From a virus (Duplodnaviria > Caudoviricetes): a stretch of 64,000 nt of DNA. The first letter of the stretch is position 1, and each line of letters starts with the position of its first letter. The stretch spans positions 1,732 through 65,731 of IMG/VR virus record IMGVR_UViG_3300017648_000198; one strand, given 5' to 3'. Under the pieces are notes generated by a model. That model did no database searches. It was not told where the DNA came from and saw only the letters and a list, made by a program, of their open reading frames with translations. Position numbers and translations under genes: made by a program. Below are positions 46,854 to 47,914 of this stretch, one piece after another.

Positions 46854-47064
46854 CAACATTAGGGTGGCTTTATACGGTGACGTATATCGAATAACCGCTT
46901 AAATTCAGGGAACCCGTAACGTAAAGACGACGGCAACCGTGAGCGAAACCTATCCACGCATAGCGTAATCACAAAGTAGATAGGGACGTGCAGAGACTAT
47001 AATAGCGGAATCTCTTATGAGATTGTGGGATAGTCCGATCCTATGAGAAATCATAGATAAGATG
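46854..47064 (+). mobile_element. ORF-less group I intron (211 nt) in the minor head gene
   Basis: Splicing CAT|...G|CCT restores FHPNCKHVV; P1 CCATC/GGTGG with U.G; ACCGC/GCGG P3; GACTA/TAGTC P7; AATCTC/GAGATT P8; CTATG/CATAG P9. Confidence 0.88.
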
Positions 47065-47112
47065 CCTAATTGTAAGCATGTAGTATTACCAATACGAGAA
47101 CCAAAAGAGTGA
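47065..47112 (+). CDS. Minor capsid protein exon 2 (PNCKHVVLPIREPKE*)
   Basis: Completes the HPNC.H motif; spliced product is 268 aa. Confidence 0.85.
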   Translation, partial: PNCKHVVLPIREPKE

Positions 47113-47155
47113 TGAAACCATTCGTCGCTCTTTTTGTGTTCAAGGAGGTATTATT

Positions 47156-47914
47156 ATTCGTGTTACTAATGTAAATGACGACTTCTTTAAGGAGTGGGGC
47201 AGAGACGTTGCTTGGGTTTATGGTTGGTTACTGACAGATGGTAGCGTTTCTAGTAAGACTGGACAAATAAAGTTGCAACTAAAGCACATCGATAAAGATG
47301 TCCTAGAAAAAATAAGAGATAAGTTGCAGTTTGATGGGAACATATATCATACGAAGTTAGAGGACGGAAGGGAAAGTTATTATTTAAGGGTATGTAGGCG
47401 CGATATGGTAAATGATTTAGGGAATTTAGGTATGCCCTTGTTTAACAAAACATTTACAACTAGTTATCCCGATGACTTGCCTACTGATTACTTTTGGGAC
47501 TTTATGAGAGGTGTAACCGAAGGAGACGGCAACCTCAAACACGGAAAGCGGTGGAACGACCTTACGGTAAGTATATTCTCCGCATCACCTCAATTCTTAC
47601 CGGCTGTACAGGCTAGACTGTACGAATATGATATTAACACCACTATTATCGAGAGGCCTCCAGGAACGTCCGGAAGTAAAGAGGTTATGTACATCTTACG
47701 TACAAAGGCAAACGCCGACGCATTGCGTTGGTGTTTTTTAATGTACAGAAACACTGATACGAATTTTAGGTTAGCTCGTAAGTTCGAGATTTTTAGAAAC
47801 TACGTCGAAGGTTATTACGACAGAAATAGGCGATCAAAACCAAGTATACAAATGATTGAAACTATTAGAAAAGAAATACCGGAATGTAGCGATAGTGAAA
47901 AAGATGTTGCATAG
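47156..47914 (+). CDS. Free-standing double-motif LAGLIDADG endonuclease; ATT start
   Basis: AWVYGWLLTDG (upstream of the first TTG at 47273) and FMRGVTEGDG; SD AAGGAGG 7 nt before ATT; AT-rich. Confidence 0.85.
   Translation: MRVTNVNDDFFKEWGRDVAWVYGWLLTDGSVSSKTGQIKLQLKHIDKDVLEKIRDKLQFDGNIYHTKLEDGRESYYLRVCRRDMVNDLGNLGMPLFNKTFTTSYPDDLPTDYFWDFMRGVTEGDGNLKHGKRWNDLTVSIFSASPQFLPAVQARLYEYDINTTIIERPPGTSGSKEVMYILRTKANADALRWCFLMYRNTDTNFRLARKFEIFRNYVEGYYDRNRRSKPSIQMIETIRKEIPECSDSEKDVA

What the first reader, a model, noticed from the sequence alone, without database searches (positions are those of the whole stretch)
46854..47914. ORF-less group I intron in a head gene with an adjacent free-standing LAGLIDADG: candidate collaborative homing unit
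Seen: a 211-nt intron splits the conserved H|PNC motif of the minor head protein, leaving a 15-codon exon 2. About 90 nt after the intron lies an AT-rich double-motif LAGLIDADG gene, damped by a terminator-like hairpin (47103-47135) and an ATT start. The intron lacks the extra P7.1/7.2 elements seen in the two nrdE introns, suggesting a separate acquisition. Established: collaborative homing between an ORF-less intron and a neighbouring endonuclease is described for a few phages, such as the S-PM2 psbA intron. Inference: the enzyme cuts the intron-less allele near TTCCAT^CCTAAT, so intron and nuclease spread together. To my knowledge this is unusual for a LAGLIDADG and for a morphogenesis gene.
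Basis: partly seen in the sequence, partly recalled or inferred. Interest (0 to 1): 0.8.

Follow-up and report, generated by a model that had tools for sequence, protein, structure and literature searches.

The report
Head-gene intron with neighbouring LAGLIDADG nuclease
A Paenibacillus-type prophage carries a small self-splicing intron with no gene of its own in a head-assembly gene, followed directly by a separate DNA-cutting "homing" nuclease gene; related phages suggest the two move together as one selfish block, a new example of a known partnership that uses a nuclease family not reported for it in the papers searched here.

Summary
A 211-nt group I intron (46854-47064; Rfam 57.4 bits) splits the minor head gene exactly between H and PNC. 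Of 43 relatives found with the head protein, 40 read FH|PNC/PRC without interruption.

Thirty-eight nt after the 15-codon exon 2 lies an intact, AT-rich LAGLIDADG gene with two motifs. Its AF2 model has pLDDT 91 and matches LAGLIDADG folds. It has a strong SD but only ATT as a possible start.

Relatives of this nuclease (37-59% identity) always sit at the same place, between the minor head and scaffold genes. Four lineages have the intron and four do not. The same intron lineage also occurs next to an unrelated HNH/EndoVII-like gene, and once alone.

Three comparisons suggest the intron, exon 2 and nuclease travel as one block:
- A contig from another study is 98.5% identical over 46831-47948, while contigs laid on its flanks are about 87%.
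- L049 and L052 share the block on diverged backbones.
- L017 and L020 show a divergent tract around the insertion.

Both intron-less carriers of the closest nuclease type have HPCC instead of HPNC, which fits a cut at the intron insertion site. The cut site itself remains untested.

Verdict: a new member of the known "collaborative/trans homing" kind. An earlier scan note (e1-5351606) describes a similar arrangement on other DNA.

The parts
46095..46853 (+). Exon 1 of the minor head (SPP1 gp7-like / Phage_min_cap2) gene, ending ...NEIFH
   Evidence: PF06152 at 1.1e-14 and phrog_4611 at 8.7e-42. 43 relatives align to residue 253.
46854..47064 (+). ORF-less group I intron, 211 nt, without P7.1/P7.2
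   Evidence: RF00028 at 57.4 bits, full model. P1 has a U.G pair, the intron ends in G, and P10 has 6 bp. Homologous introns sit at the identical site in L017, L023/25, L049/50, L052 and L094. In the five-intron alignment (window, L017, L023, L049, L052), 19 of 53 pairs show compensatory changes.
47065..47112 (+). Exon 2: PNCKHVVLPIREPKE plus TGA
   Evidence: It continues the frame exactly as in intron-less L006/L007.
47103..47135 (+). Hairpin overlapping the stop codon of the minor head gene, followed by a short U-run (weak terminator or attenuator)
   Evidence: Fold of 47090-47175, z = -3.97. Not called by the consensus scan. Analogous hairpins occur in relatives L020, L036, L040, L049, L052 and L073.
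47142..47148 (+). Shine-Dalgarno AAGGAGG of the nuclease gene
   Evidence: Read. It lies 7 nt before ATT 47156. The same residues (QGGIII) are kept in variant P0180.
47156..47914 (+). Free-standing monomeric (two-motif) LAGLIDADG homing endonuclease gene. Inferred ATT start (47150/47153/47156), stop TAG 47912-14.
   Evidence: PF14528 at 1.2e-11 and phrog_4645 at 6.8e-30. AF2 pLDDT 91.4 with two alpha-beta-beta-alpha-beta-beta-alpha halves. Foldseek matches LAGLIDADG enzymes at 4e-10 to 1e-5. Catalytic D30 and D126 are invariant.
47915..47994 (+). Conserved intergenic leader of the scaffold gene. It marks the right edge of the nuclease cassette.
   Evidence: The same element follows the stop codon of the minor head gene directly in nuclease-less L007 and L008.
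47995..48684 (+). Scaffold protein gene (right-hand neighbour)
   Evidence: PF06810 at 6.1e-16.

Best explanation
The stretch is a two-part selfish module at the 3' end of the minor head gene of a Paenibacillus-type prophage.

(1) The 211-nt group I intron splices itself out of the late transcript. This restores the HPNCKH motif, so the head protein is made normally.

(2) The LAGLIDADG gene is a free-standing homing endonuclease gene. It is inserted exactly between the stop codon of the minor head gene and the conserved leader of the scaffold gene. It is probably expressed at a low level, because it lies behind a hairpin and starts at AUU.

(3) When this phage meets a relative that lacks the module, the enzyme cuts the naive genome at or near the intron insertion site (CAT|CCNAAYTG). 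Repair copies the intron, exon 2 and the nuclease gene from the donor. In the carrier, the intron splits the recognition sequence and protects the carrier from its own enzyme. In L051 and L072 an HPCC substitution would do the same job.

Shown here: steps 1 and 2 at the sequence level, and the co-transfer of the block. Inferred: nuclease activity, the cut site, protection by the intron, and the AUU start.
For: Identity of the parts.

Position: all nuclease relatives with recoverable DNA (L049/50, L051, L052, L053, L072, L073, L094; 37-59% identity) lie between the minor head and scaffold genes.

Association: 5 of 6 intron-bearing lineages have a nuclease gene directly after exon 2, against 4 of about 34 intron-less lineages (Fisher p about 0.001). 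The other cargo genes found at this junction are not nucleases.

Patchy distribution: on the host-gene tree the intron sits in 5 separate clades, and four of them have a close intron-less sister. L094 was found later and is not on that tree. The introns are 72-90% identical to each other.

Block transfer:
- A 1124-nt contig from a different study covers 46831-47948 with 17 differences (98.5% identity). Contigs laid on the two flanks are about 87% identical.
- L049 and L052 share the intron at 88-90% and the nuclease gene at about 75-80% nt identity, on minor head genes only about 60% identical. The jump in identity falls at the insertion site.
- L017 and L020 are 88-98% identical, except for about 300 nt on each side of the intron and nuclease insert.

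Cut site: all 5 short-form nuclease lineages lack an uninterrupted HPNC codon string. Three have the intron and two have HPCC. HPCC occurs only in L051 and L072 and in L016/21, the sister of nuclease-bearing L052.
Against: No cleavage, splicing or expression data exist, and no listed holder of the stretch is on record as an RNA run.

Four nuclease-bearing lineages have no intron. Two of them (long-form L073 and L053) keep an intact HPNC, so those enzymes either cut elsewhere or differ in specificity.

L023/25 carries the intron with no nuclease gene.

The window's gene has no canonical start codon and could be decaying.

The loci were collected with three different queries, so the association test is not based on a random sample, and the lineages are few.

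The metagenomic contigs are short, and their adjacency to the flanking contigs is inferred.

The window's own nearest relatives (80-90% nt identity) show no clear co-conversion tract.
Confidence: 0.6

Rival explanations
1. The intron hitch-hikes without a shared target. The LAGLIDADG enzyme cuts at its own insertion point or in the conserved scaffold leader (ordinary intron-less homing). The intron, 48 bp upstream, is only dragged along by co-conversion, as T4 MobE does for the I-TevIII intron.
For: The cassette lies exactly at the junction of stop codon and leader. The first 20 nt or so of the leader (47915-47935) differ from L007 more than the rest of the leader does. LAGLIDADG enzymes usually cut inside the site that their own insertion disrupts (general knowledge). 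Nuclease genes occur without the intron in L051, L072, L073 and L053. trans homing by MobE is documented (PMC2790892).
Against: The C-terminal tail and stop-codon region of the minor head gene vary in length and sequence among relatives, which makes them a poor target. In two comparisons the left edge of the shared block lies within about 20 nt of the intron insertion site, not further out. This model does not explain the HPCC changes in the two intron-less short-form carriers.
Confidence: 0.22
2. Two independent residents of an insertion hot spot, with a decaying nuclease. The junction between the minor head and scaffold genes accepts many kinds of cargo. The intron arrived separately, for example with an internal nuclease gene that was later lost (the nuclease-gene turnover proposed in PMC10448857). 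The LAGLIDADG gene, lacking a start codon, is no longer made.
For: The junction holds unrelated cargo in many relatives, including Ig-like/Golvesin_C, CBM, GDSL and hexapeptide proteins. It is also a mosaic boundary. There is no canonical start codon. Three different nuclease types sit beside the same intron lineage.
Against: The ORF is intact over 252 codons and both catalytic Asp residues are conserved. Copies 98.5-100% identical turn up in several unrelated samples. The strong SD with correct spacing is kept in the variants. The intron-nuclease association and the block-level sharing are hard to explain by chance.
Confidence: 0.12
3. The LAGLIDADG protein acts mainly as a maturase in trans. 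It helps the small intron fold, as bI3 and I-AniI do in fungal mitochondria.
For: The structural matches include the bI3 maturase and the bifunctional I-AniI. Maturase activity of a bacterial LAGLIDADG protein is reported (PMC3984707).
Against: The same intron lineage exists with an HNH-type neighbour (L017) and with no neighbour at all (L023/25). The nuclease also exists without the intron. The catalytic residues are retained. The intron folds into a complete core with covariation support.
Confidence: 0.05

Closest known systems
Collaborative homing: free-standing F-CphI with the ORF-less psbA group I intron of cyanophage S-PM2 (Zeng, Bonocora & Shub 2009; PMC6083498, PMC3984707)
   Same: [quoted passage not shown] The intron is proposed to protect the carrier while the nuclease mobilises both.
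   Different: The nuclease here is a LAGLIDADG enzyme, not the Endo VII/DHHRN type. The host gene is a head-assembly gene of a temperate Firmicute phage. The cut site is untested here, whereas it was shown for F-CphI.
T3/T7-like phage DNA polymerase intron with an adjacent free-standing HNH gene, and the ICP1 terminase intron with an adjacent T5orf172 gene (PMC3984707, PMC10448857)
   Same: A nuclease gene lies next to, not inside, an intron in an essential gene. The locus is also a boundary of genetic exchange.
   Different: Different nuclease families and host genes. Here several nuclease types (short and long LAGLIDADG, HNH-like) alternate beside one intron lineage in related phages.
T4 MobE and the I-TevIII-defective nrdB intron (trans homing; PMC2790892)
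   Same: A free-standing nuclease promotes inheritance of a neighbouring intron that cannot move by itself.
   Different: The paper's abstract shows only that mobE promotes trans homing of the defunct I-TevIII. That MobE cuts away from the intron site and carries the intron along by co-conversion is recalled from memory, not read here. Whether the same applies in this window is the main open question.
Intein- and intron-encoded monomeric LAGLIDADG enzymes (TliVMA and PI-SceI intein endonuclease domains, I-Tsp061I, I-AniI, I-OnuI, I-DmoI)
   Same: Two LAGLIDADG helices, each with a catalytic Asp, and two alpha-beta-beta-alpha-beta-beta-alpha halves. Pfam family LAGLIDADG_3.
   Different: Sequence identity is only 10-18%. 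The gene here is not embedded in an intron or an intein.

Membership tests
Group I intron (Rfam RF00028) | Covariance-model score at or above the gathering score, over the full model | tested here: met
   57.4 bits against 50, model positions 1-253.
Group I intron (Rfam RF00028) | U at the end of exon 1 forming a U.G pair in P1, G as the last intron base, and P10 pairing with exon 2 | tested here: met
   T46853 pairs with G46864, and G47064 ends the intron. CCUAAU pairs with AUUAGG. The same boundaries hold in 5 homologous introns.
Group I intron (Rfam RF00028) | Removal restores a conserved reading frame | tested here: met
   FH|PNCKHVV matches 40 uninterrupted relatives.
Group I intron (Rfam RF00028) | Helices supported by compensatory changes | tested here: met
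   19 of 53 pairs show changes on both sides across 5 introns.
Group I intron (Rfam RF00028) | Self-splicing with guanosine in vitro, or a spliced mRNA in vivo | not testable with these tools
   No listed holder of the stretch is on record as an RNA run.
LAGLIDADG homing endonuclease, monomeric two-motif type | Two LAGLIDADG motifs, each ending in an acidic residue followed by Gly | tested here: met
   LLTD30G and EGD126G are invariant in 17- and 12-sequence alignments. PF14528 scores 45.2 bits against 22.5.
LAGLIDADG homing endonuclease, monomeric two-motif type | A pseudo-symmetric fold of two alpha-beta-beta-alpha-beta-beta-alpha halves | tested here: met
   AF2 model with pLDDT 91.4 and pTM 0.89. 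The Foldseek matches listed at E below 1e-4 are LAGLIDADG proteins: nucleases, the bI3 maturase and the WhiA domain.
LAGLIDADG homing endonuclease, monomeric two-motif type | Site-specific double-strand cleavage of a site about 20 bp long | not testable with these tools
   Needs an enzyme assay.
Free-standing homing endonuclease gene | Not inside an intron or intein, and optional between two conserved genes in related genomes | tested here: met
   It lies after the TGA of exon 2 and has its own SD. It is absent from L006/L007/L008 and about 28 other lineages. It is present at the same site in 7 other lineages, 4 of them without an intron.
Collaborative (trans) homing unit | An ORF-less intron with an adjacent free-standing nuclease gene, inherited as one block | tested here: met
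   Block-level identity; association. Caveats: short contigs and non-random sampling.
Collaborative (trans) homing unit | [quoted passage not shown] | not testable with these tools
   Indirect evidence only: 5 of 5 short-form carriers have the site split by the intron or changed to HPCC.
SPP1 gp7-like / Phage_min_cap2 minor head protein | Profile match, and gene order portal - minor head - scaffold - major capsid | tested here: met
   PF06152 and phrog_4611 for the gene itself; neighbours match PF05133, PF06810 and PF17236.

The most novel reading that the evidence does not exclude
The junction between the minor head and scaffold genes of these Paenibacillus-type phages is a site of nuclease turnover. 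One ORF-less intron lineage serves as a shared protection element for at least three different free-standing nucleases: short-form LAGLIDADG, long-form LAGLIDADG with an added N-terminal domain, and an HNH/EndoVII-like enzyme. All three would have converged on the HPNC-coding sequence. Naive phages would escape through the rare N-to-C (HPCC) double substitution. A conserved structured leader RNA of about 90 nt would be the common regulatory or landing element of the nuclease cassettes. [quoted passage not shown]
Probability: 0.3. Interest if true: 0.7.

Novelty: new member of a known kind. Interest (0 to 1): 0.55.

Why it matters
In the papers read here, collaborative homing rests on two experimentally studied phage systems, plus ICP1, where the arrangement was inferred from sequence. 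It is one of the two proposed routes by which introns became mobile. It is unclear how such pairs arise, and whether they instead reflect turnover of nuclease genes (PMC10448857).

This locus offers a compact, testable case with a LAGLIDADG enzyme. That is the best understood and most engineerable nuclease family, and the papers searched here do not describe it as a free-standing intron partner in phages.

The locus also comes with a ready comparative series in related phages:
- intron with LAGLIDADG;
- intron with an HNH-like nuclease;
- intron alone;
- LAGLIDADG alone, with a changed target codon.

If the cut site proves to be the intron insertion site, the HPCC alleles would be natural resistance variants. 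The series would then show nuclease replacement beside a persisting intron.

For annotation, the minor head gene and the nuclease gene are both mis-called here. The first is truncated at the intron and the second starts at an internal TTG.

Tried and rejected
The contexts of the closest nuclease homologue P0003 (71% identity) and of P0004-P0031 could therefore not be fetched.
- Exact-pattern scans of IMG/VR with P0001 and P0003 found nothing.
- The genome-contig scan with alignment A1 found nothing.
- The intron-junction pattern in genome contigs gave 31 matches. None encodes a minor head protein or a nuclease relative, so they are chance hits. L096 in IMG/VR is also a chance hit.
- A second IMG/VR scan with the broader alignment A6 added no new close loci.
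- The phage GenBank collection holds no close relative. It gave only short matches to the intron core in Staphylococcus, Vibrio and Escherichia phages, and weak matches to the minor head gene.
- No RNA holder was listed for the stretch, so there is no read-level test of splicing.
- Sliding identity of the window against L006/L007 showed no clear co-conversion tract. These relatives are too distant, and the scaffold and capsid module is of another type.
- The consensus terminator scan did not call the 47103-47135 hairpin.
- The sequence search of the PDB gave only one weak intein hit; the fold search was needed.
- The ATG at 47078 was considered as the nuclease start and rejected. It is followed at once by TAG in the window, has no SD, and arises from the conserved CAT-G of the KHV codons. 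Variant P0180 merely has that frame open.
- GTG 47160 and ATG 47175 are out of frame.
- Complex prediction was not used, because no protein-protein claim is made.

Full report
**What is in the window**

The window belongs to a 65.7-kb IMG/VR provirus record. Close homologues of its nuclease are annotated in Paenibacillus genomes.

The gene order around the finding is:
- terminase;
- portal, 44551-46095 (PF05133);
- minor head protein, 46095 onwards (PF06152, phrog_4611);
- scaffold, 47995-48684 (PF06810);
- SU10-type major capsid protein, 48750-49871 (PF17236).

**The intron**

Rfam's group I model matches 46844-47057 at 57.4 bits, above the gathering score of 50, and over its whole length.

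The boundaries can be read directly from the sequence:
- Exon 1 ends ...TTCCAT at 46853.
- CCAU|C (46850-54) pairs with GGUGG (46863-67). This puts the canonical U.G pair at the splice site.
- The intron ends in G at 47064.
- CCUAAU at the start of exon 2 pairs with AUUAGG (46858-63), forming P10.

It holds no meaningful ORF.

Exon 2 encodes PNCKHVVLPIREPKE*. I found 43 related loci in IMG/VR with the exon 1 protein. Of these, 40 continue without interruption as FH|PNC(K/R)H, or with R, C or K in place of N. The two closest relatives (88% protein identity) read NEIFH|PNCKHVVLPVRNP. The splice junction is thus confirmed independently by protein continuity.

Homologous introns lie at exactly the same position in L017, L023/L025, L049/L050, L052 and L094. 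They are 72-90% identical to one another. In the five-intron alignment (window, L017, L023, L049, L052), 19 of 53 predicted pairs keep pairing through changes on both sides. This is a real, conserved ribozyme lineage.

The two nrdE introns of the same phage carry an HNH and a GIY-YIG gene. Both have an insert of about 36 nt in J7/3, the position I take (from memory) to be that of P7.1/P7.2. The head intron lacks it.

**The nuclease gene**

The frame that contains both LAGLIDADG motifs is open from 47084 to the TAG at 47912-14. It contains no ATG, GTG or TTG before 47273, which already lies beyond motif 1.

Seventeen homologues align from a few residues before VNEDFFKxW. The true start must therefore lie at about 47150-47160. 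There the sequence reads AAGGAGG-T-ATT-ATT-ATT. ATT 47156 has the best spacing, 7 nt from the SD. This is an inference.

The alternative is that the gene has lost its start codon. Three points argue against decay:
- The ORF is intact.
- D30 and D126 are invariant.
- A variant at least 90% identical keeps the same SD and III residues.

The AlphaFold model is confident (pLDDT 91.4). It has the two alpha-beta-beta-alpha-beta-beta-alpha halves. The strongest Foldseek matches listed are LAGLIDADG proteins: intein-borne and intron-borne nucleases, the bI3 maturase and the WhiA domain.

The gene is AT-rich: 36-46% GC against 53-59% in the neighbouring genes.

Comparison with nuclease-less L007 and L008 fixes the limits of the cassette. 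It lies between the stop codon of the minor head gene and a conserved leader of the scaffold gene (47915-47994).

The hairpin at 47103-47135 is real. However, hairpins with a U-run that overlap this stop codon also occur in nuclease-less relatives. This type of hairpin is therefore not specific to nuclease-bearing loci.

**Comparative evidence**

Every relative of the nuclease whose DNA I could fetch lies at the same place, between the minor head and scaffold genes.

| Nuclease form | Identity to the window's nuclease | With the intron | Without the intron |
|---|---|---|---|
| Short form | 54-59% | L049/50, L052 | L051, L072 |
| Long form (about 80 extra N-terminal residues) | 37-47% | L094 | L073, L053 |

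In L017 the same intron is followed by an unrelated gene for a zinc-finger protein with an HNH-like domain (phrog_1035 "endonuclease VII", 6.6e-26). In L023/25 the intron stands alone.

Counted by lineage, 5 of 6 intron-bearing alleles have a nuclease gene directly downstream. Among intron-less alleles the figure is 4 of about 34 (Fisher p about 0.001). The sampling is not random, because three different queries were used.

Other cargo at this junction in intron-less relatives consists of Ig-like, carbohydrate-binding, GDSL or hexapeptide proteins, not nucleases.

On the host-gene tree the intron occupies five separate clades. Four of them have a close intron-less sister. L094 was found later and is not on that tree.

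**Signs that the block moves as a unit**

1. In a metagenome from another study, a 1124-nt contig covers 46831-47948. That is 23 nt of exon 1, the intron, exon 2, the nuclease gene and 34 nt beyond it. It has only 17 differences. Contigs laid on the two flanks are about 87% identical. Further samples hold pieces of both intron and nuclease gene at 99-100% identity.
2. L049 and L052 have minor head genes only about 60% identical at the DNA level. Their introns are 88-90% identical and their nuclease genes about 75-80%. The jump in identity falls at the insertion site.
3. L017 and L020 are 88-98% identical across the head module. The exception is about 300 nt on each side of the intron and nuclease insert, where identity falls to 40-75%. 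This looks like a co-conversion tract.

**Where does the enzyme cut?**

This cannot be settled here. Two observations favour the intron insertion site:
- All five short-form lineages lack an uninterrupted CAT-CCN-AAY-TG. Three have the intron. Two have HPCC, which needs a double nucleotide change.
- HPCC is otherwise seen only in L016/21, the sister clade of nuclease-bearing L052.

Two observations speak against a simple picture:
- The long-form enzymes of L073 and L053 coexist with an intact HPNC.
- A LAGLIDADG enzyme might instead recognise the junction that its own cassette disrupts.

I put about 0.6 on collaborative homing with a cut at or near the insertion site. I put about 0.2 on hitch-hiking by co-conversion from a cut elsewhere. 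The remainder goes to coincidence with decay, or to a maturase role.

**Comparison with what is known**

Collaborative or trans homing is described for:
- S-PM2 psbA with F-CphI;
- T3-like DNA polymerase introns;
- T4 mobE with the I-TevIII intron;
- by sequence, the ICP1 terminase intron (PMC3984707, PMC6083498, PMC2790892, PMC10448857).

Group I introns in capsid and tail genes are also known (PMC3706429).

My literature searches found no description of a free-standing LAGLIDADG partner, and none of an intron in a gp7-type minor head gene. It is unchecked by me, and there is no sequence overlap with this window.

I therefore class the finding as a new member of a known kind. Its added value is the natural series of variants among relatives.

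Noticed in passing
L049:3028-3112, L051:4900-4984, L052:4900-4986, L017:5018-5108, L094:4025-4125(-): A conserved structured leader of about 90 nt (GCCGCGATAGGCTGATCACCGAAAAG-hairpin-CTGCGCGGC...AAGGGG) precedes the nuclease ORF. The ORF behind it may be short-form LAGLIDADG, long-form LAGLIDADG or HNH-like. 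The inner hairpin shows compensatory changes (GGCGT/ACGCT, GACGC/GCGTC, GGCGC/GCGCC). Rfam int-alpA scores 31-33 bits in L049-L052, just under its gathering score of 35.8. The window's own cassette lacks this leader.
   Followed up: partly
window 47915-47994 (and the L007, L008, L010, L024 intergenic regions): A conserved intergenic element lies upstream of the scaffold gene (GTCGTTAAACT...CGTCGACGGACGTTAATCGG..GAGGTAACGAA-ATG). It contains a small hairpin next to the SD and is shared by relatives whose coding flanks are much more diverged. It may be a translational operator or a late-transcript element.
   Followed up: no
window 22478-26389: nrdE is split into three exons by two group I introns. 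One carries an HNH_3/NUMOD4 gene (23245-23952) and the other a GIY-YIG/I-TevI-like gene (24654-25217). With the LAGLIDADG gene, this phage carries three homing-nuclease families. The Rfam scores of these introns are below the gathering score (19-30 bits).
   Followed up: partly
window about 48000-49900 compared with L007: Mosaic boundary. The portal and minor head genes are 80-90% identical in DNA to L007, but identity falls just inside the scaffold gene. The capsid gene is of another type (SU10-type here; 31% protein identity to L007's). The nuclease cassette therefore sits at a boundary of module exchange.
   Followed up: partly
L006:4792-8055, L032:5692-7974, L022:4808-6778, L037:4800-5987, L013:5655-6323: In intron-less relatives the same junction between the minor head and scaffold genes holds large optional cargo genes. 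Their domains include Golvesin_C with Ig-like/fn3, CBM_4_9, GDSL lipase-like and hexapeptide transferase.
   Followed up: partly
L051, L072, L016, L021 (codon after FH-P): The conserved HPNC motif reads HPCC (AAT changed to TGT or TGC, a double change) in three separate clades. Each of these clades either carries the short-form LAGLIDADG gene or is the sister of a carrier. This may be a target-site resistance allele.
   Followed up: partly
window 47078-47083; protein P0180: In the nuclease frame an ATG is followed at once by TAG inside exon 2. A variant at least 90% identical, from another sample, has CAG there. Gene callers then extend its ORF to 280 aa, overlapping exon 2.
   Followed up: partly
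window 47710-47736: A terminator-like hairpin with a T-run lies inside the LAGLIDADG coding sequence. It is the only terminator-like site that the consensus scan called in 46000-48800, and it is within the number expected by chance.
   Followed up: no
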